NCBI GenBank assembly: GCA_001819495.1
Contig: MHMW01000028.1
Span: 5,398-69,397, forward strand
DNA from: Candidatus Portnoybacteria bacterium RBG_19FT_COMBO_36_7
GTDB taxonomy: Bacteria > Patescibacteriota > Minisyncoccia > Portnoybacterales > GWB1-42-6
Length of the DNA stretch: 64,000 nucleotides
Direction of reading: 5' to 3'
Made by a program: the position numbers and the translations under genes. The notes below the pieces were generated by a model. It did no database searches and was not told the DNA's origin. It saw only the letters and a program-made list of their open reading frames with translations. Numbering within the stretch: position 1 is the first letter of the stretch; the number at the start of each line of letters is the position of its first letter. Below are positions 3,916-8,717 of the stretch, one piece after another.

Positions 3916-4106
3916 ATGGACTTTGCTTTTTTAATACATTCAAGGACTATACTGATGTTCAGAGAAAATTTAAAGTTGCAAAATATCTCCCTAAATCCTG
4001 GGTAGAATTTTGGTGTCTGCATTGGCCGCCAGTGGTGGTGTCTAAAATTGACGGGCTGAAAGATAAAAAGGAGGAGATAAAAAAATCTATTGATTACTGT
4101 GTATAA
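3916..4106 (+). pseudogene. Degenerate, frameshifted copy of the 'mini-gene' repeat (MDFAFLIHS... start plus DYTDVQRKFKVAKYLPKSWVEFWCLHWPP body plus Lys/Glu-rich tail).
   Basis: About 120 bp is nearly identical to 8440-8560. The ATG frame stops after 24 codons because of a 1-nt indel relative to the 8440 copy. Confidence 0.4.
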
Positions 4107-4165: not shown

Positions 4166-4837
4166 TTAAACCGCCATGAGTTGCGCTTCTCGTCCGACCA
4201 ACGAACCGTAACCATTGAAAGCATACCAGAGTTCGGTTGAAAGGACGCTGGAAGCAAGAAAGAGTTGATTGAATTTCGCCCAGGCAACGAAAAGGATAGC
4301 GAAGTCGTCTTTGATATTGCCAGGCCGATTTTCTTCCAAAATCCGGCTAACTTCGCCTTTTTTGACCGCACCTTCGAGGGTCGCGATCATAGTCATAAGC
4401 GACGAGGTTTTCACCGACAGCGATTCAATTAAAGATTCAAAGAGGACCAAAACTTCGCAGAACCCTCCTTTTATCATCTTTTCTGAAATTATTTTCCACG
4501 AGGTCGAGTCCACAAGGCCATTTCCGGCAAGCGATTCTCCTAATTCCCGCAAGTTCAGCTTCCTTAATGTGGGAAGATCTGCGAAATCTTTTTCATCCAT
4601 CTTCTGCCTGATTTTCCCGATCATCTTTGTGGCTCCCGTGAGAGATTGCATGGAGAAATTCAGGTGCTTGCTGATAACGGAGGTATCGCCATTTTGGCCG
4701 TTCAGCTCAGCAAGGATAACATCTTCAAGGGCAACATTGCCCAACTCAAGCTCTGCATAAGCTAAGCTCAGAAACCGCGAAAGTCTCGTTGATTCCGCCA
4801 AATAAATATGACATGGTTGATGATTTTTTCCACCCAT
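4166..4837 (-). CDS. Hypothetical protein.
   Basis: 223-aa ORF with GGAGA upstream of the ATG. No recognisable motif. Confidence 0.45.
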   Translation of the reverse strand: MGGKNHQPCHIYLAESTRLSRFLSLAYAELELGNVALEDVILAELNGQNGDTSVISKHLNFSMQSLTGATKMIGKIRQKMDEKDFADLPTLRKLNLRELGESLAGNGLVDSTSWKIISEKMIKGGFCEVLVLFESLIESLSVKTSSLMTMIATLEGAVKKGEVSRILEENRPGNIKDDFAILFVAWAKFNQLFLASSVLSTELWYAFNGYGSLVGREAQLMAV

Positions 4838-4914: not shown

Positions 4915-5352
4915 TTATGAAAAGAGCTTACTGACTTGCTTTTTTGTCAGATACATATAAGAAAGACGGGGATCGCAATAATGTCTTCCTTTTTTTATCT
5001 TTCCTTTATCTATTTCTAAAACAACAACTAAAGGAGTTCTATAAACCTTTTTTGTCTTTGGATCTGGATAACTTTCAATCATTTCAACCATAACAACTTC
5101 CTGGCCCTCCGCGATATTTTTTATATCATATTCTCTGCCTTTTATTGGATAGACTACAGCCAACTCATTCTTTATATCCACCGAAGTTTTAGGAAATAAT
5201 CTGTCGTTTTTCCCTTGATAAACCCAAGTCATGGTATAACCGGCCTTCATTTTTTTTAAGGCAGCCTTAACATCGCCCTTGATTTCATCATTTAATATAT
5301 CAAGAACGGTTTTTACATTATTAGTTATTTTTATATTTTTAGGAATTCTCAT
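4915..5352 (-). CDS. Hypothetical small protein, possibly NTF2/SnoaL-like fold. The ORF-track N-terminal extension to 5505 runs into a non-coding repeat and is probably not translated.
   Basis: ORF from MRIPKNIKI... The upstream 150 nt is the promoter-like direct repeat. Confidence 0.35.
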   Translation of the reverse strand: MRIPKNIKITNNVKTVLDILNDEIKGDVKAALKKMKAGYTMTWVYQGKNDRLFPKTSVDIKNELAVVYPIKGREYDIKNIAEGQEVVMVEMIESYPDPKTKKVYRTPLVVVLEIDKGKIKKGRHYCDPRLSYMYLTKKQVSKLFS

Positions 5353-5433: not shown

Positions 5434-5505
5434 TTTTTGTTTAGGGCGGGGTGGATGATTGAACAACTTCACGCCTGGCAGGCGAAAGTGATATAATAGA
5501 AGCAA
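5434..5505 (+). promoter_or_regulatory. Copy 1 of a ~70-bp direct repeat carrying an extended -10 promoter (TGATATAAT), upstream of the small gene pair at 5572-6035.
   Basis: TTTTTGTTTAGGGCGGGGTGGATGATTGAACAACTTCACGCCTGGCAGGCGAAAGTGATATAATAGAAGCAA; copy 2 at 6077-6150. Confidence 0.5.
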
Positions 5506-5571: not shown

Positions 5572-5748
5572 ATGAAAAAAATTATATCAAAAGATAAAAC
5601 TCAAGCCGGCCTTATAAAGCGAATAGAAAATTTACTGTCTGAGCAGACAGGTATAATTTTATCTGCAGTCGACCAAAAAGTCGCGAAGCTAGAAAAAAGA
5701 ATTGATGATTTTGACTTTTTAATATATTCAGCTAAAATCAAATCATGA
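5572..5748 (+). CDS. Small coiled-coil protein (58 aa), paralogous to the next ORF and translationally coupled to it through an ATGA overlap.
   Basis: Hand-translated: MKKIISKDKTQAGLIKRIENLLSEQTGIILSAVDQKVAKLEKRIDDFDFLIYSAKIKS. It was too short for the ORF track. Confidence 0.4.
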   Translation: MKKIISKDKTQAGLIKRIENLLSEQTGIILSAVDQKVAKLEKRIDDFDFLIYSAKIKS

Positions 5749-6035
5749 AAAAAGAGCAAACCATTACCAAGGATTATCTTGAAAAAACCCTTGATAAACG
5801 ACTGTCGCAACAGGCGCAGGTTATTATTGCGGCGGTTGACAGTGTGCTCCAAAAAAGGCTGGAAAAAGTAAAAACGGAATTGAAAAACGATATTAATAAC
5901 GTCCAAACCCTGATTGACGGCTACGTCAAAGCACAGGAAGATTTTAAGCAGGAATTTGTTATTCTGAAAGAGGAAGTGAAACAGATAAAACAGGTGCTAA
6001 AGAAAAAACTGGGAGTAGAAATCCAAGCTTTCTAG
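5745..6035 (+). CDS. Small coiled-coil protein (96 aa), paralog of 5572-5748.
   Basis: LS.Q.QVIIAAVDSVLQKRLEK mirrors LSEQTGIILSAVDQKVAKLEK. A terminator hairpin GCCATCCCTTGATGGC plus T-run follows. Confidence 0.5.
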   Translation: MKKEQTITKDYLEKTLDKRLSQQAQVIIAAVDSVLQKRLEKVKTELKNDINNVQTLIDGYVKAQEDFKQEFVILKEEVKQIKQVLKKKLGVEIQAF

Positions 6036-6076: not shown

Positions 6077-6150
6077 TTTTTTTGTTTGGGGCGGGGTGGA
6101 TGATTGGGCAACTTCACGCCTGACGGGGGAAAGTGATATAATAGAAGCAA
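6077..6150 (+). promoter_or_regulatory. Copy 2 of the 70-bp promoter-bearing direct repeat.
   Basis: TTTTTGTTTGGGGCGGGGTGGATGATTGGGCAACTTCACGCCTGACGGGGGAAAGTGATATAATAGAAGCAA. Confidence 0.5.
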
Positions 6151-6342: not shown

Positions 6343-6888
6343 TTAAGATTTTTTCTTTCTGTATTCTTCTTTAAATTTCAAAAATTTATTTTTAAGATCG
6401 TTAAATTTTTTTATACCGATATTCCAAGAGTCTAATCCTTTATCAAAAATAACAAATTGATGATAAGCAATCTGTATAGCACCTTCCTCGGGATTAACAA
6501 TATACCACTTGCTATCAATAAAACATTCGGCAAAAATATGCCCTTCAATGTATTTTTCGTCTCCTATATCTAACCATTTTCGCCTTATTGCCTCAACATA
6601 TACGGTAGGGATTTTTCTTACCCTGGCAAAAGCAATAAAAACCAAGGCATAATCAGTGCAGCCGGTGGTGACTTTGCTTTTTATTATTTCATCCGCTGTT
6701 CTCTTTCTAAAAAATTTTTTCTTAAATTCAACTGAATCTGTATCTTTGATATTTTTCTGCACCCATTGTAGCATCTCAAAAATAAGTTCAAGCCCCTCGT
6801 TTTTAAAAGTCGAGGCTATCTCAATAATTTTAGGTGTAATTTCGGTCTGCTGACCACTTTTTAAATATTTTTTAATTTGTTTATTCAT
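6343..6888 (-). CDS. Transglutaminase-like cysteine peptidase domain protein.
   Basis: GCTDYALVF (Cys), GHIFAEC (His) and a downstream Asp give the Cys-His-Asp transglutaminase-like core. Confidence 0.6.
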   Translation of the reverse strand: MNKQIKKYLKSGQQTEITPKIIEIASTFKNEGLELIFEMLQWVQKNIKDTDSVEFKKKFFRKRTADEIIKSKVTTGCTDYALVFIAFARVRKIPTVYVEAIRRKWLDIGDEKYIEGHIFAECFIDSKWYIVNPEEGAIQIAYHQFVIFDKGLDSWNIGIKKFNDLKNKFLKFKEEYRKKKS

Positions 6889-6949
6889 GCGATTAATATA
6901 GCAAATTGGTATAAAAAAGAAAAGGGACCGGAATTTTCCGATCCCTCAA

Positions 6950-8050
6950 TCACACAGTCGACAACGAATGGTCTAATTCCATAATCGCAGACTTCATGTG
7001 TCTAAGTATCTTCTTTGTAGCTGAACAAAAATAGTTGAGAGATGATAATAATTGGCCATTGATATACCGATAATAGGTACAACCTCCATTGCAGATATTA
7101 GCCCATTCACAACTTAAACATTCCTTCTTCGATGCTTGAATCTCGCCCTTAAGACTCTTCCACTTTTTTGAACACAACAAGCTTTTCAGAGTTTTCTCCA
7201 TTATATTGCCGATTCTGAACTTATCAATGCCTACAAATCTGCCGCATAAATATAGGTCACCGTTGTAATCAAGCGCAAGATAAGCAGCGCACTCATTGGC
7301 GCAATGACAAATAGTCGGTCGCCCTCCGATCAGCCCTTGAAAATAACTTTCTAACGGCTGAATTTTAATATCTGGGTCGTCCTTTGCCATCCAGCAGTCG
7401 AAAATTCTGATCATGAAACTCGCATATCCAAGGGGGGTGATAGAAAAACTGGCCATCTTTCCATTCTCTTTCTCGGCACACACCGATAAATTGAGCCTGC
7501 CGAGACCGGAACTAACAAAAAAATCCCATATAGCATCTACGTTTTTTGCCGCATTTTTTGTGATAACAGAAATGATACCCGGATTAAAACCATTAACCTT
7601 CAGTACCTCGATTCCTTTCATTACTCTTTCAAATGACCCACTACCATTGAATATTTTTCGAAATTGATCATGAATCTTTTTGGGTCCATCTAAGCTTACT
7701 CCGATTTTAAATGCATTCTTTTTGAAAAATGCTGCCCATTCTTGATCAATTAAAGTACCGTTTGTCTGGACACTATTTAGATATTGTTTGCCTTTCAGGT
7801 ATCTGGCTTGGAAACCAACTGCTGCTTCGTAAAAATTTATTCCGGCAATCAACGGTTCGCCCCCGTGCCAGACGAAAGAAAAACTGTTTTCGTCAAGCTC
7901 TGATAACTGACAAATAAAAGTCTCGAGAAGACGTATATCCATCTTCAGCTTTTTTTCTTCTTTCGTTTTCGACCACAGATTGCTATTGTAACAATAATCA
8001 CATCTTAAATTACACAAAACAGAAACTGGTTTCATGATAAAGGTCAGCAT
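6950..8050 (-). CDS. Radical SAM/SPASM enzyme of the anSME (anaerobic sulfatase-maturating enzyme) family. I think it more likely a peptide-modifying maturase here.
   Basis: KPVSVLCNLRCDYC (CX3CX2C), FVWHGGEPLIAG, SVQTNGTLIDQEW...GVSLDGPKKIHDQFRK, and SPASM cysteines CHCANEC...CGRF...CLSCEWANICNGGC. Collinear, by recollection, with Clostridium anSME, which carries these same four motif blocks. AGGAGGA lies upstream of the ATG. Confidence 0.8.
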   Translation of the reverse strand: MLTFIMKPVSVLCNLRCDYCYNSNLWSKTKEEKKLKMDIRLLETFICQLSELDENSFSFVWHGGEPLIAGINFYEAAVGFQARYLKGKQYLNSVQTNGTLIDQEWAAFFKKNAFKIGVSLDGPKKIHDQFRKIFNGSGSFERVMKGIEVLKVNGFNPGIISVITKNAAKNVDAIWDFFVSSGLGRLNLSVCAEKENGKMASFSITPLGYASFMIRIFDCWMAKDDPDIKIQPLESYFQGLIGGRPTICHCANECAAYLALDYNGDLYLCGRFVGIDKFRIGNIMEKTLKSLLCSKKWKSLKGEIQASKKECLSCEWANICNGGCTYYRYINGQLLSSLNYFCSATKKILRHMKSAIMELDHSLSTV

Positions 8051-8113
8051 ATATCCTCCTTTTATGCCTGAAAAAATAGGGGAGGCAAAAATTTTTGTCT
8101 CCCCACCGCCCGA

Positions 8114-8266
8114 CTAATCGGATCTGTCACCATATTGAGAATCACCATACCCATCTCCGTAGGGACTAGCGCTATGGCACTTGTAAGTCCGATCAGGCGA
8201 CTGCTTCCGCATTGCCATCATTCGTGCCAAAATACGGACACCTTTTTTCTTTTTAGGCGCTTTCAC
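8114..8266 (-). CDS. Candidate RiPP precursor peptide (50 aa; GTG start). Sequence: VKAPKKKKGVRILARMMAMRKQSPDRTYKCHSASPYGDGYGDSQYGDRSD.
   Basis: Hand-translated minus-strand ORF. AAGGAGG lies 8 nt upstream of the GTG. A consensus promoter sits directly upstream and the radical SAM gene 63 nt downstream on the same strand. It has a Lys-rich leader-like N-terminus and a YGD-repeat C-terminus with a single Cys. Confidence 0.5.
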   Translation of the reverse strand: MKAPKKKKGVRILARMMAMRKQSPDRTYKCHSASPYGDGYGDSQYGDRSD

Positions 8267-8293
8267 GGCCAACACCTCCTTTCTATTTGGAAT

Positions 8294-8338
8294 GAACTAC
8301 GATATTTTATAATAATAGACAAAAAGCGACTTGTCAAT
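8294..8338 (-). promoter_or_regulatory. Near-consensus sigma70 promoter (TTGACA, 17-nt spacer, TATTAT) driving the peptide, radical SAM and (likely) transglutaminase-like genes.
   Basis: The minus strand reads cat-TTGACA-agtcgctttttgtctat-TATTAT-aaaatatc. Confidence 0.6.
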
Positions 8339-8439
8339 GTTTTGCTAAGGGTACCTAAAGTGCTATAATGTAACTAAATCTTCGTAAGCTAAGATTTAAA
8401 TAATCCTAATTGGAAAGAATAATTTAAGGTTTATTTAAA

Positions 8440-8717
8440 ATGGACTTTGCTTTTTTAATTCATTCAAGGGATTATACTGATGTTCAGCGAAAATTTAAAG
8501 TTGCAAAATATCTCCCTAAATCCTGGGTGGAATTTTGGTGTCTGCATTGGCCGCCAGCCGCGAACTGAAAATGGTCGAACTTAAAAAGAAGATAAAAGAG
8601 ATGGAGGGAAAACGGGAAAAGATTAGTTCATATGAAACTAGACCAAATAATAAATTTAATATTAGATTATATATCCATGAAATGGTTAATGTTATATATA
8701 TTTTGATGTATGAATAA
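8440..8717 (+). pseudogene. 'Mini-gene' repeat copy. It reads MDFAFLIHSRDYTDVQRKFKVAKYLPKSWVEFWCLHWPPAAN*, then, in the +1 frame, ...SRELKMVELKKKIKEMEGKREK... (ORF track 8535-8717). It looks like an internally deleted relic of a sensor gene.
   Basis: Its 5' end is identical to the sequence preceding gene 20447. Its 3' tail is homologous at DNA and protein level to the C-terminus of 20447-21598 and of 2184-2810. Confidence 0.45.

What the first reader, a model, noticed from the sequence alone, without database searches (positions are those of the whole stretch)
6343..8338. Candidate RiPP operon: consensus promoter, 50-aa Lys-rich/YGD-repeat peptide, anSME-family radical SAM/SPASM enzyme and transglutaminase-like cysteine protease.
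A near-perfect sigma70 promoter (TTGACA-17-TATTAT) and the window's strongest SD (AAGGAGG) drive a 50-aa ORF, VKAPKKKKGVRILARMMAMRKQSPDRTYKCHSASPYGDGYGDSQYGDRSD. This peptide sits 63 nt upstream of, and is co-oriented with, a radical SAM protein that is collinear with anaerobic sulfatase-maturating enzyme (CX3CX2C plus a full SPASM twin-cluster domain). No sulfatase is in the window, and the peptide lacks the C/S-x-P-x-R sulfatase motif. The peptide has a basic leader-like N-terminus and a C-terminal core with one Cys and three Tyr-Gly-Asp triplets. This Omega-X-X pattern is reminiscent of substrates of three-residue-cyclophane-forming or thioether-forming (ranthipeptide/QhpD-like Cys-to-Asp) SPASM enzymes. 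The next gene on the same strand is a transglutaminase-like Cys protease that could act as leader peptidase. The 8135-8368 plus-strand ORF in the track is the antisense of this peptide and lacks an RBS. To my knowledge such a locus is not a standard CPR feature.
Basis: partly seen in the sequence, partly recalled or inferred. Interest (0 to 1): 0.85.

Follow-up and report, generated by a model that had tools for sequence, protein, structure and literature searches.

The report
Conserved Tyr-X-Asp peptide maturation cassette
A small three-gene cassette in an uncultured Portnoybacteria (CPR) genome encodes a 50-residue peptide with repeated Tyr-X-Asp units, a radical SAM enzyme derived from sulfatase maturases, and a cysteine peptidase; the same trio recurs in related genomes, so it is very probably an undescribed family of enzymatically cross-linked peptides.

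Summary
On the minus strand lie a TTGACA-17-TATTAT promoter, an AAGGAGG ribosome-binding site, a 50-codon ORF (8266..8114), a hairpin with a T-run, a 366-aa radical SAM/SPASM gene (8050..6950) and a 181-aa transglutaminase-fold gene (6888..6343).

Promoter and SD alone are no better than chance. Conservation makes the case. Every contig of sufficient length retrieved through a peptide homologue also carries the rSAM and the transglutaminase-fold gene. Flanks differ and gene order is sometimes rearranged. Invariant residues show synonymous codon changes.

The enzyme is not a sulfatase maturase. It scores below the anSME cut-off. Tyr24 and Asp277 of anSMEcpe are replaced (Asn/His; Cys-Gly-Arg). 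No sulfatase signature occurs in the 64 kb.

Across 28 precursors the constant feature is 3-12 Tyr-X-Asp triplets with variable X. Cys is absent from two. Sister clades carry Trp-Asp-Lys or Trp-X-Asp/Asn repeats.

Best reading: a triceptide-like pathway. The rSAM cross-links each Tyr to the residue two positions on, and the peptidase removes the basic leader. The chemistry is inferred. The cassette matches no curated family, and named sources are all Patescibacteria. It is a new variant of a known kind.

The parts
8309..8337 (-). Sigma-70-type promoter, TTGACA-17 nt-TATTAT, about 70 nt upstream of the peptide start codon
   Evidence: 11 of 12 matches. TTGACA-N16-18-TAnnnT is found 70-120 nt upstream of the peptide start in 9 of 11 loci examined, window included. 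Function is inferred.
8275..8281 (-). Shine-Dalgarno AAGGAGG, 8 nt upstream of the GTG start
   Evidence: AGGAGG-type sites precede the peptide gene in the relatives.
8114..8266 (-). Precursor peptide gene, 50 codons plus stop. Residues 1-27 form a basic leader with the motif KKGxRILxxM. Residues 28-50 form the core, YKCHSASP-YGD-G-YGD-SQ-YGD-RSD.
   Evidence: 26 homologous peptides were found in the protein databases, plus locus-derived ones. Synonymous codon variation occurs at the invariant residues.
8071..8104 (-). GC-rich hairpin (GGGGAGACAAAAA/TTTTTGCCTCCCC) followed by TATTTTTT, lying between the peptide stop and the rSAM SD. Probably a partial terminator that sets a high precursor-to-enzyme ratio.
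   Evidence: A hairpin of different sequence occupies the same position in 11 of 12 loci, and one position changes on both sides between the window (A.C) and L003 (G.U). The attenuator function is inferred.
6950..8050 (-). Radical SAM/SPASM peptide maturase, 366 aa, with no N-terminal RRE domain. It has CX3CX2C plus eight auxiliary-cluster cysteines. It carries Asn22 and Gly270-Arg271 where anSMEcpe has Tyr24 and Asp277-Phe278.
6912..6947 (-). Terminator-like hairpin (11 pairs) with a T-rich tail, between the rSAM and the transglutaminase-fold gene
   Evidence: In other loci the two genes are 30-60 nt apart or overlap (L009).
6343..6888 (-). Transglutaminase-fold cysteine peptidase, 181 aa, with Cys77 and His117 and with Asn132 in place of the usual Asp. 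It is the presumed leader peptidase.

Best explanation
This is a self-contained three-gene RiPP cassette.

1. A strong promoter and SD give abundant 50-residue precursor. A hairpin with a T-run after its stop codon lets only part of the transcripts continue into the enzyme genes.
2. The radical SAM/SPASM enzyme descends from anaerobic sulfatase maturases but has lost their catalytic Tyr and Asp. It recognises the amphipathic basic leader (KILxxM). It uses the 5'-deoxyadenosyl radical to abstract a hydrogen from the beta-carbon of the third residue of each Tyr-X-Asp unit. The resulting radical attacks the Tyr ring, and the auxiliary clusters remove the electron. This yields one three-residue cyclophane per unit, at -2 Da each: three in this peptide, and possibly a fourth at Tyr28-Lys29-Cys30.
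3. The invariant Arg/Lys that follows the fourth SPASM cysteine (Cys-Gly-Arg) is proposed to hold the Asp/Asn side chain.
4. The transglutaminase-fold Cys-His-Asp/Asn peptidase then removes the leader.

Shown here: the gene content, the conservation and linkage of the three genes, translation-level selection on the peptide, loss of the anSME hallmark residues, and the Tyr-X-Asp repeat logic.

Inferred: the nature of the cross-link, the role of the Arg, the cleavage site, attenuation by the hairpin, and the biological role of the product.
For: Linkage. The peptide-rSAM-peptidase trio is found in relatives reached from the rSAM, from the peptide and from the peptidase. Flanking genes are unrelated between loci. 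L013 has the order peptide-peptidase-rSAM, and L030 has the rSAM convergent to the other two genes.

The peptide is a real gene. Invariant Tyr, Cys, His, Gly and Asp codons vary at the third position. A full HMMER scan of 1.84 billion representatives returns only 12 small peptides plus one 610-aa protein with a weak repeat match.

The enzyme is not an anSME.
- It scores 318.5 bits against a cut-off of 349.45 on TIGR03942. Five other cassette rSAMs score 254-313. A sulfatase-linked control scores 472.6.
- anSMEcpe Y24 becomes N/H and D277 becomes G in every cassette rSAM. All sulfatase-linked rSAMs keep Y...CDH.
- Every rSAM in the fetched loci that carries the Cys-Gly-Arg/Lys motif has a transglutaminase-fold gene beside it where the contig is long enough, and no rSAM with the anSME-type Cys-Asp motif has one (L005's second rSAM merely shares a contig with a cassette).
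- The cassette rSAMs form one clade in an NJ tree.
- No sulfatase signature occurs in the window or in cassette loci.

Cyclophane logic.
- 28 precursors hold 113 Tyr-X-(D/E/N) triplets. X3 is Asp in 108. X2 takes 14 different residues. There are 3-12 triplets per peptide.
- L104 has 12 tandem triplets and no Cys. L041 has YVN/YAN/YGN.
- Sister clades carry WDK or W-X-D/N repeats behind a similar leader.
- The second-best curated match is DynA, a curated peptide-maturase model. Several models named as cyclophane-forming (GrrM/OscB, YhhB, AmcB, FxsB, XyeB) follow, all collinear and without an RRE.
- The AF2 model (pLDDT 93.4) matches the triceptide synthase ChlB almost as well as anSME, TM 0.87 against 0.89.
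- There is precedent for predicting triceptides from Omega-X-X motifs (MicA YSK/HAS/FTK, PMC12912966). There is also precedent for an active-site residue that influences substrate specificity at X3 (HtkB D214, PMC11499958).

Peptidase. AF2 gives pLDDT 97.5. The best PDB match is a putative cysteine protease, 3isr, at TM 0.67. C77 is invariant, and H117 is present in 51 of 52 sequences.
Against: - No chemistry was observed, so the cross-link type is inferred from sequence patterns only.
- The rSAM reaches no curated cut-off for any cyclophane-forming family. By sequence it is closer to anSME than to any characterised triceptide synthase.
- The Tyr-X-Cys-His motif is kept in 26 of 28 peptides, so Cys probably has a role that this model does not explain.
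- The window peptidase has Asn at the triad Asp position (5 of 52 sequences).
- The peptidase subfamily also occurs without an rSAM or peptide (L101, L105), so its role need not be leader removal.
- A terminator-like hairpin lies between rSAM and peptidase in this window.
- No exporter or immunity gene is consistently linked to the cassette.
- The catalytic roles of anSMEcpe Y24 and D277 are recalled from Goldman et al. 2013 (PNAS). They could not be checked in the paper library.
Confidence: 0.55

Rival explanations
1. The cassette is a RiPP pathway, but the rSAM acts on the conserved Cys. One option is a Cys-to-Asp thioether, as QhpD and ranthipeptide maturases make. The other is conversion of Cys30 to formylglycine, as its anSME ancestors do. 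The Tyr-X-Asp repeats would then serve as acceptor sites or as a functional part of the product, for example in metal binding.
For: Tyr-X-Cys-His is present in 26 of 28 precursors. The enzyme is most similar to anSME, which abstracts the Cys/Ser C-beta hydrogen (PMC5682303). PapB and QhpD models give significant but sub-threshold matches.
Against: Two members with intact rSAM and peptidase have no Cys at all (L030, L104). There is only one Cys against 3-12 repeats whose number varies. The anSME residues Y24 and D277 are lost. PapB scores 151.6 against a cut-off of 340, and QhpD scores 113.9 against 453. Unlike QhpD, this enzyme has no N-terminal extension.
Confidence: 0.17
2. The rSAM performs a different radical reaction on the Tyr-X-Asp units. 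Options include a C-O or C-N cross-link (as in darobactin and dynobactin), Tyr C-beta chemistry, epimerisation, or decarboxylative coupling. The product may be a set of small excised units rather than one macrocyclic peptide, which would be a PQQ- or mycofactocin-like cofactor logic.
For: DynA and DarE/DarW models are among the best matches. PqqE-type enzymes couple a Tyr to an acidic residue and are followed by a peptidase (established knowledge). No exporter or immunity gene is linked to the cassette. Repeat number varies from 3 to 12.
Against: None of those family cut-offs is reached. The X2 residue varies, which would make the excised units heterogeneous. The model's fold similarity to PqqE is low, TM 0.58. 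There is no direct evidence for this reading.
Confidence: 0.18
3. The rSAM is an ordinary anaerobic sulfatase maturase serving a sulfatase encoded elsewhere in the genome. The small ORF is a chance or unrelated feature.
For: The best NCBIfam and PDB matches are anSME. Only 64 kb of the genome could be inspected.
Against: The score is below the curated cut-off, while a sulfatase-linked control passes. Y24 and D277 are lost. There is no sulfatase signature in the window. The peptide is conserved under protein-level selection, and every contig of sufficient length retrieved through it also carries the rSAM.
Confidence: 0.02
4. The peptide and rSAM form a pair, but the transglutaminase-fold protein is not the leader peptidase. 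It may be a housekeeping CPR cysteine peptidase or transglutaminase that is merely often adjacent, or it may act on the product in another way, such as C-terminal trimming or isopeptide formation.
For: Close homologues stand without an rSAM or peptide in L101 and L105. The window copy has Asn for the triad Asp. A terminator-like hairpin precedes the gene. The transglutaminase fold supports several different reactions.
Against: The gene remains adjacent despite two different rearrangements of the cassette (L013, L030). Every rSAM in the fetched loci that carries the Cys-Gly-Arg/Lys motif has this gene beside it where the contig is long enough, and no rSAM with the anSME-type Cys-Asp motif has one. 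The genes overlap in L009.
Confidence: 0.2

Closest known systems
Triceptides: three-residue cyclophane RiPPs made by rSAM/SPASM 3-CyFEs such as XyeB, GrrM/OscB, YhhB, HaaB, HtkB, ChlB and MicB
   Same: [quoted passage not shown] The single rSAM/SPASM maturase lacks an RRE domain and is encoded next to the precursor. The AF2 model matches ChlB at TM 0.87. A Pro precedes the first motif, as in MicA.
   Different: The maturase reaches no curated 3-CyFE cut-off: GrrM/OscB 190 of 310, YhhB 177 of 445, AmcB 147 of 425, FxsB 115 of 370, XyeB 114 of 450. The repeat unit is Tyr-X-Asp, and the strings searched in the paper library gave nothing ('YGDGYGD'; a term search combining radical SAM, SPASM, transglutaminase, precursor peptide and Patescibacteria found nothing on this family). 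The partner peptidase has a transglutaminase fold. All named sources are Patescibacteria. The cross-link itself is unproven.
Anaerobic sulfatase-maturating enzyme (anSME; TIGR03942; PDB 4K36-4K39)
   Same: It is the closest relative by sequence (E 5e-54 to anSMEcpe, about 29% identity) and by fold (TM 0.89). The length is the same, CX3CX2C is present, and all eight auxiliary-cluster cysteines are kept.
   Different: The score is below the curated cut-off (318.5 against 349.45). Tyr24 is replaced by Asn and Asp277 by Gly. The substrate is a dedicated 50-aa peptide without a C/S-x-P-x-R motif. No sulfatase lies nearby.
DynA and DarE (dynobactin and darobactin maturases)
   Same: DynA is the second-best curated match, at 282.7 bits and full-length collinear. 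From established knowledge, these enzymes make side-chain cross-links between an aromatic residue and a residue two positions on, within short cores. Triceptide and daropeptide maturases are said to share an origin (PMC12912966).
   Different: The score is far below the cut-off of 450. The precursors (WNSNVHSYRF, WNWSKSF) are Trp-based with a single core and come from Proteobacteria. They have no transglutaminase-fold partner.
Lasso-peptide B (B2) proteins: transglutaminase-fold cysteine leader peptidases
   Same: A small Cys-His-Asp transglutaminase-core protein (PF01841) is encoded beside a RiPP precursor and its modifying enzyme (established knowledge for lasso peptides).
   Different: There is no lasso cyclase and no RRE/B1 partner. 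The best structural match is an uncharacterised putative protease, 3isr, not a lasso B protein. Protease activity was not tested. Homologues also occur outside the cassettes.
PqqA/PqqE/PqqF and MftA/MftC/MftE (peptide-derived cofactors)
   Same: Each has a short precursor, one rSAM/SPASM enzyme that acts on a Tyr (coupled to an acidic residue in PQQ), a peptidase, and no exporter (established knowledge).
   Different: The repeat number is variable and X2 varies. The further tailoring enzymes of those pathways are absent. Fold similarity to PqqE is low, TM 0.58.

Membership tests
Radical SAM / SPASM superfamily | CX3CX2C radical SAM motif and Pfam PF04055 and PF13186 above their gathering scores | tested here: met
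   PF04055 scores 63.8 (cut-off 29.5) and PF13186 scores 29.4 (cut-off 21.5). The motif cysteines are C13, C17 and C20.
Radical SAM / SPASM superfamily | Cysteine ligands for two auxiliary [4Fe-4S] clusters | tested here: met
   All eight positions aligned to anSMEcpe C255, 261, 276, 330, 317, 320, 326 and 348 are Cys (ligand list from PMC5682303).
Anaerobic sulfatase maturase (anSME, TIGR03942) | Score at or above the curated equivalog cut-off | tested here: not met
   The score is 318.5 against 349.45. NF010308 gives 240.5 against 484, and NF010321 gives 223.8 against 441. The control L060 scores 472.6 and 680.5.
Anaerobic sulfatase maturase (anSME, TIGR03942) | Active-site Tyr24 and Asp277 (anSMEcpe numbering) are conserved | tested here: not met
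   The window enzyme has Asn and Gly at these positions, and every cassette rSAM has N/H and G. All sulfatase-linked rSAMs have Y and D. The catalytic role of these residues is recalled from Goldman et al. 2013 and was not re-read.
Anaerobic sulfatase maturase (anSME, TIGR03942) | A sulfatase substrate with the C/S-x-P/A-x-R signature is encoded nearby or in the genome | tested here: not met
   The regex gives no hit in any ORF of 150 aa or more in the 64-kb window, or in cassette loci. It gives canonical hits beside eight classical anSMEs. The rest of the genome could not be searched.
RiPP biosynthetic cassette (generic) | A short precursor with a conserved leader and core, genetically linked to its modifying enzyme across genomes | tested here: met
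   Protein-level selection on the peptide is shown.
Triceptides / 3-CyFE | One or more aromatic-X-X motifs in the core of the precursor | tested here: met
   The window peptide has three Tyr-Gly-Asp units plus Tyr-Lys-Cys. The 28 family members hold 113 Tyr-X-(D/E/N) triplets with variable X2.
Triceptides / 3-CyFE | Maturase belongs to a curated cyclophane-forming rSAM family (GrrM/OscB, YhhB, XyeB, AmcB, FxsB) | tested here: not met
   All matches are significant but well below the cut-offs. Fold similarity to ChlB is TM 0.87.
Triceptides / 3-CyFE | Aromatic carbon to C-beta bond on the third residue (-2 Da per motif) | not testable with these tools
   This requires co-expression followed by MS/MS and NMR.
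DynA (dynobactin maturase, NF041298) | Score at or above the cut-off, and a dynobactin-type precursor | tested here: not met
   The score is 282.7 against 450. The precursor is unrelated to WNSNVHSYRF.
Ranthipeptide / QhpD-type thioether maturases | Cys donors in the substrate, and family HMM score at or above the cut-off | tested here: not met
   PapB scores 151.6 against 340 and QhpD scores 113.9 against 453. Family members L030 and L104 have no Cys.
Transglutaminase-like cysteine peptidase (PF01841) | Pfam score at or above the gathering score, and a transglutaminase/papain-like fold | tested here: met
   The Pfam score is 34.2 against 23. The AF2 model has pLDDT 97.5, and the best PDB hit is 3isr, a putative cysteine protease, at TM 0.67 and E 5e-8.
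Transglutaminase-like cysteine peptidase (PF01841) | Cys-His-Asp catalytic triad | tested here: inconclusive
   Cys77 is present in 52 of 52 sequences and His117 in 51 of 52. Position 132 is Asp in 47 of 52, but Asn in the window protein and four others. Asn is used by papain-type triads (established knowledge).

The most novel reading that the evidence does not exclude
The Tyr-X-Asp units are not just rings in a peptide antibiotic. Each would be cross-linked by chemistry not yet described for RiPPs. The transglutaminase-fold peptidase would then excise them, giving 3-12 copies per precursor of a small Tyr-Asp-derived redox-active or metal-binding molecule. That would be a PQQ- or mycofactocin-like cofactor or public good made by genome-reduced CPR bacteria. 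It would also explain the absence of exporter and immunity genes and the large radiation of related cassettes in this phylum.
Probability: 0.1. Interest if true: 0.85.

Novelty: new variant of a known kind. Interest (0 to 1): 0.6.

Why it matters
CPR/Patescibacteria have tiny genomes and few recognised natural-product pathways. Despite that, a compact peptide-modification cassette is maintained across many lineages: about 28 precursors of this type and 144 clusters of the partner peptidase. It sits within a wider radiation of anSME-derived enzymes paired with tandem aromatic-X-X peptides.

If the prediction holds, four things follow:
- An unrecognised Tyr-X-Asp family is added to the triceptides.
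- It shows how a protein-maturing enzyme (anSME) was converted into a peptide cross-linker by replacing its catalytic Asp with Gly-Arg.
- It provides a minimal three-gene system, with a 366-aa enzyme lacking an RRE, for making multiply cyclised acidic peptides.
- It gives a handle on what CPR cells secrete or use when interacting with their hosts.

The test is simple: a two-plasmid co-expression followed by mass spectrometry.

Tried and rejected
- The genome-contig scan with the single rSAM protein found only two distant or partial relatives and no cassette.
- Viral contig scans with the peptide and peptidase profiles found nothing, so the cassette is not evidently phage-borne.
- NCBIfam, Pfam, PHROGs and PADLOC gave no family for the peptide or the neighbouring unknown ORFs. 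The PADLOC pVip hits to the rSAM reflect generic radical SAM core similarity.
- The paper search for 'YGDGYGD' returned no papers. Searches for CPR RiPPs and for rSAM with transglutaminase found nothing on this family.
- I could not retrieve the anSMEcpe structure paper or the SPASM review to verify the roles of D277 and Y24. I therefore relied on the empirical contrast between sulfatase-linked and peptide-linked enzymes.
- I first assumed that peptide P0125 was linked to rSAM P0031, which keeps Y and D, because both have a longest contig of the same length. The look-up showed this was a coincidence: P0125 sits beside a 364-aa rSAM carrying His at the Tyr24 position and the Cys-Gly-Arg-Phe motif.
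- I considered a QHNDH-like small-subunit system. It was rejected because no qhpA/B/E/F/G-type genes are present in any locus.
- I considered a mobile-island origin because of the 106-nt direct repeats that bracket 4.5 kb. The repeats are duplicated 5' fragments of a gene. No integrase or transposase was found, so this remains unresolved.
- Exact-sequence look-up of the window peptide and of the antisense ORF found neither in the protein collection.

Full report
**What is in the window.**

The minus strand between 8337 and 6343 carries, in order:

- A TTGACA-17-TATTAT promoter (8337-8309, 11 of 12 matches).
- An AAGGAGG site (8281-8275), 8 nt before a GTG at 8266.
- A 50-codon ORF ending at 8114: VKAPKKKKGVRILARMMAMRKQSPDRTYKCHSASPYGDGYGDSQYGDRSD.
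- A GC-rich hairpin followed by TATTTTTT (8104-8071).
- A second AAGGAGG site (8061-8055).
- A 366-aa gene (8050-6950).
- A strong terminator-like hairpin (6947-6922).
- A 181-aa gene (6888-6343).

Pfam calls the 366-aa protein Radical_SAM plus SPASM, and the 181-aa protein Transglut_core. The rSAM protein is 100% identical to a hypothetical protein of Candidatus Portnoybacteria bacterium RBG_19FT_COMBO_36_7.

Taken alone, the promoter and SD are not remarkable. AAGGAGG occurs 12 times in the window against 8.6 expected. There are four 11/12 promoter matches in the first 20 kb.

**Is the small ORF a gene, and is it linked to the enzymes?**

rSAM homologues at 77%, 50% and 46% identity were traced to their contigs. 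All have a 50-56-aa ORF just upstream and a Transglut_core gene just downstream. The upstream ORFs encode the same peptide family.

I then searched from the peptide side.

- A word-indexed search of 5.8 billion proteins with a four-peptide profile found 14 small proteins.
- A full HMMER pass over 1.84 billion cluster representatives found 13 hits. Twelve are small peptides of the same family, and one is a 610-aa protein with a weak repeat match.
- The family is therefore rare and specific.
- Five of these peptides were traced to contigs. Every contig long enough carries the rSAM and the transglutaminase-fold gene beside the peptide.

The flanking genes differ from locus to locus. They include type IV pilus genes, NUDIX, DegT, a glycosyltransferase and FtsW. 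The gene order is rearranged twice: peptide-peptidase-rSAM in L013, and peptide-peptidase convergent with the rSAM in L030. The three genes therefore travel as a unit.

Across eleven loci the invariant Tyr, Cys, His, Pro, Gly and Asp codons vary at the third position (TAC/TAT, TGC/TGT, GGA/GGC/GGG/GGT, GAT/GAC). This shows selection on the protein sequence. The antisense frame, which is the 8135-8368 plus-strand ORF in this window, contains stops in five of the eleven. TTGACA-N16-18-TAnnnT lies 70-120 nt upstream of the start in 9 of 11 loci, and AGGAGG-type SDs recur.

A GC hairpin, usually with a T-run, lies between the peptide gene and the next gene in 11 of 12 loci. Its sequence differs each time. 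This is the pattern expected for a partial terminator that keeps the precursor in excess over its enzymes. That function is inferred.

The window peptide itself is absent from the protein collection, so it was not annotated.

**What the radical SAM enzyme is and is not.**

Its best curated match is the anaerobic sulfatase maturase model TIGR03942, at 318.5 bits against a cut-off of 349.45. Next is the dynobactin maturase DynA (282.7 against 450). Several cyclophane-forming families follow: GrrM/OscB 190, YhhB 177, AmcB 147, FxsB 115 and XyeB 114. All of these are collinear over the full length. None reaches its cut-off.

Five further cassette enzymes behave the same way, at 254-313 bits on TIGR03942. 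A control enzyme that sits beside a sulfatase signature scores 472.6 on TIGR03942 and 680.5 on NF010308.

The radical SAM motif starts at residue 13. There is therefore no N-terminal RRE domain, unlike QhpD, SCIFF and CcpM-type maturases, whose models align from about position 90.

Aligned to anSMEcpe (PDB 4K36, E 5e-54), the enzyme keeps all eight auxiliary-cluster cysteines. The ligand list comes from PMC5682303. However, it has Asn at Tyr24 and Gly at Asp277, so the anSME motif Cys276-Asp277 becomes Cys-Gly-Arg.

From memory of Goldman et al. 2013, Asp277 and Tyr24 are the residues implicated in anSME catalysis. I could not re-read that paper. I therefore tested the point empirically on 80 metagenomic loci fetched with a profile of the clade.

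- Every rSAM next to a canonical sulfatase signature keeps Tyr...Cys-Asp-His.
- Every rSAM with Cys-Gly-Arg/Lys has a transglutaminase-fold neighbour wherever the contig allows, and none of the others does.
- In a neighbour-joining tree (no bootstraps, so only indicative), the Cys-Gly-Arg/Lys enzymes form one clade. It is sister to a Cys-(Asn/Ser/His/Glu/Ala)-Arg clade and well separated from the sulfatase-linked anSMEs.
- No ORF of 150 aa or more in the 64-kb window, or in any cassette locus, has the sulfatase signature. The same regex finds it beside eight classical anSMEs.

The AF2 model (pLDDT 93.4) superposes on anSMEcpe at TM 0.89. It superposes almost as well on ChlB, a solved triceptide synthase whose native motif is Tyr-Asp-Arg, at TM 0.87. 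CteB follows at 0.75 and PqqE at 0.58 (the ChlB motif is from PMC11499958). In summary, the enzyme is an anSME descendant by fold and ancestry, but it fails each functional membership test for anSME.

**What the peptide family says about the chemistry.**

I collected 28 distinct precursors. Their leaders share an amphipathic basic motif: KKGxKILxxM in the close relatives and [VI]L[LI]xA[IV][KR] in the distant ones.

The core begins with Tyr-X-Cys-His in 26 of the 28. It then carries Tyr-X-Asp units. There are 113 Tyr-X-(Asp/Glu/Asn) triplets in all. The third residue is Asp in 108. The middle residue takes 14 different identities (Gly 66, Ser 16, Glu 7, Asp 6, Asn 5 and others). There are 3 to 12 units per peptide.

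- The window peptide has three units.
- Many relatives have a fourth (YGDYSDA, YGDYEDAV).
- L104 has twelve in tandem (YIDGYEDYPDYDDNYDDYNDYDDYNDYHDYSDEYYDD) and no Cys.
- L030 replaces Tyr-X-Cys with Tyr-Asn-Asp and has no Cys.
- The more distant cassette L041 has an rSAM with Cys-Gly-Lys and a weaker peptidase match. Its peptide carries YVN, YAN and YGN.

So the aromatic first residue and the Asp/Asn third residue are conserved, the middle residue is free, and the copy number varies. This is the signature of the Omega1-X2-X3 motifs of triceptides, where a radical SAM enzyme bonds the aromatic ring to the beta-carbon of X3 (PMC11499958). MicA was recognised as a triceptide from exactly this kind of pattern and confirmed by a -6 Da shift (PMC12912966).

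The neighbouring clades of the same enzyme radiation reinforce this. Eight loci encode, just downstream of the rSAM, peptides ending in (K)PWDKAWDKGPWDKGHWANRK behind a PKVLLQAKKEA leader. L031 encodes NWYGEDWPDWDNDWDNSWDNS...WEDWNEWSDWNNS. Others encode Tyr/Cys/Asp/His-rich tails. None of these enzymes reaches a curated cut-off either.

The replacement of the anSME Asp by Gly-Arg/Lys would place a positive charge where the substrate's acidic or amide X3 side chain should sit. In HtkB and HaaB, one active-site residue (D214/H204), modelled next to X3, influences which X3 is accepted, and exchanging it shifts the preference between Lys/Arg and Ala. For the present enzyme this is an analogy, not a result.

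**The transglutaminase-fold protein.**

It is strongly conserved within the cassettes, at 229-333 bits against a profile of eight of them. The family has 144 clusters at E of 1e-3 or better. All members with a taxonomic name come from Patescibacteria, Portnoybacteria or Pacebacteria, apart from one labelled only 'bacterium'.

The AF2 model is very confident (pLDDT 97.5). It matches a putative cysteine protease (3isr, TM 0.67). It matches other transglutaminase-fold proteins more weakly, including the CPR protease CPR-C4.

Cys77 is invariant and His117 is present in 51 of 52 sequences. Position 132 is Asp in 47 of 52 but Asn in the window protein. A papain-like Cys-His-Asn triad is possible, but this is a caveat.

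Two of four homologues traced are in peptide-rSAM-peptidase trios (L103, L104). The other two stand without them: L101, beside a TehB-like methyltransferase, and L105. Leader removal is the simplest role, by analogy with lasso-peptide B proteins, but it is not proven. In this window a terminator-like hairpin separates the gene from the rSAM.

**Most likely mechanism, and how sure.**

I am about 85-90% confident that this is a genuine precursor-maturase(-peptidase) cassette. I am about 50% confident that the modification is an aromatic-to-C-beta cyclophane on each Tyr-X-Asp unit. The combined model therefore gets 0.55.

The conserved Tyr-X-Cys-His is unexplained. It could be a fourth Omega-X-X site, a recognition element, or part of the product's function. 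The main rivals are Cys-centred chemistry and a different radical reaction on the same units. Cys-centred chemistry is weakened by the two Cys-free members. The plain-anSME reading is effectively excluded.

**Novelty.**

The peptide has no Pfam or NCBIfam model. The motif string appears in no paper of the library. Searches for CPR RiPPs, and for radical SAM combined with transglutaminase, found nothing on this family. I cannot exclude that it is listed in the supplementary tables of large rSAM-RiPP surveys that I could not search.

It is a new variant of a known kind, namely radical-SAM-modified and probably triceptide-like RiPPs. It is distinguished by the Tyr-X-Asp repeat precursor, the anSME-derived Cys-Gly-Arg maturase clade, the transglutaminase-fold partner and its restriction to CPR bacteria.

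Noticed in passing
window 3927-4032 and 8452-8557: A 106-nt direct repeat (90% identical) brackets a 4.5-kb segment that holds the cassette and four unknown ORFs. Each copy is the first ~37 codons of a plus-strand gene (MDFAFLIHSRDYTDVQRKFKVAKYLPKSWVEFWCLHWPP). Both copies are truncated, and the left one is frameshifted. The same fragment lies upstream of the cassette in the 77% relative (L003 1-120). This may be a scar of insertion or recombination. No integrase was seen.
   Followed up: partly
window 5434-5505 and 6079-6150: A 72-nt direct repeat (92% identical), found only twice in the window. Each copy lies immediately after a terminator-like hairpin and contains a TG-extended TTCACG-18-TATAAT promoter-like site on the plus strand. 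The second copy points antisense into the 3' end of the transglutaminase-fold gene.
   Followed up: partly
L034 5094-5267; also L038, L045, L058, L059, L061, L076, L005 4179-4346: A sister rSAM clade keeps Cys-Asp-Ser-Phe but has Ala, Thr or Val at the Tyr24 position. Immediately downstream it has a conserved ~50-aa peptide with the leader PKVLLQAKKEA and tandem Trp-Asp-Lys units (..KPWDKAWDKGPWDKGHWANRK). It looks like another uncurated triceptide-type family. In L005 it sits back-to-back with the Tyr-X-Asp cassette.
   Followed up: partly
L031 5156-5359; L043 390-554; L047 3804-3926; L056 3727-3906; L037 465-584; L074 730-882: Further anSME-like rSAMs are paired with other acidic aromatic-rich peptides. 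Examples are W-X-D/N repeats in L031..SYCDLYSDDILYCADHHD.. in L043..YCTDHHE.. and ..YCEDHHE.. in L047 and L056, and ..CPCDDYENYSDCEDSD in L037. Several have a TehB-like methyltransferase convergent downstream.
   Followed up: no
L007 9038-11269; L009 9563-12171: In two loci a YcaO gene lies 2-4 kb downstream of the cassette, with a nitroreductase-family gene in one and a 645-aa AMMECR1 protein in the other. This may be a second RiPP pathway in the same neighbourhood.
   Followed up: no
window 5572-5748 and 5745-6035 (+); 4915-5352 and 4166-4837 (-): Inside the repeat-bracketed segment are two adjacent small coiled-coil paralogues and two ORFs of 145 and 223 aa. None matches Pfam, NCBIfam, PHROGs or PADLOC. 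They are not conserved next to the cassette in other loci.
   Followed up: partly
L101 4001-5156: In another Portnoybacteria genome, a 56%-identical transglutaminase-fold protein is paired with a TehB-like methyltransferase, with no rSAM or Tyr-X-Asp peptide. This arrangement was seen on more than 20 contigs.
   Followed up: partly
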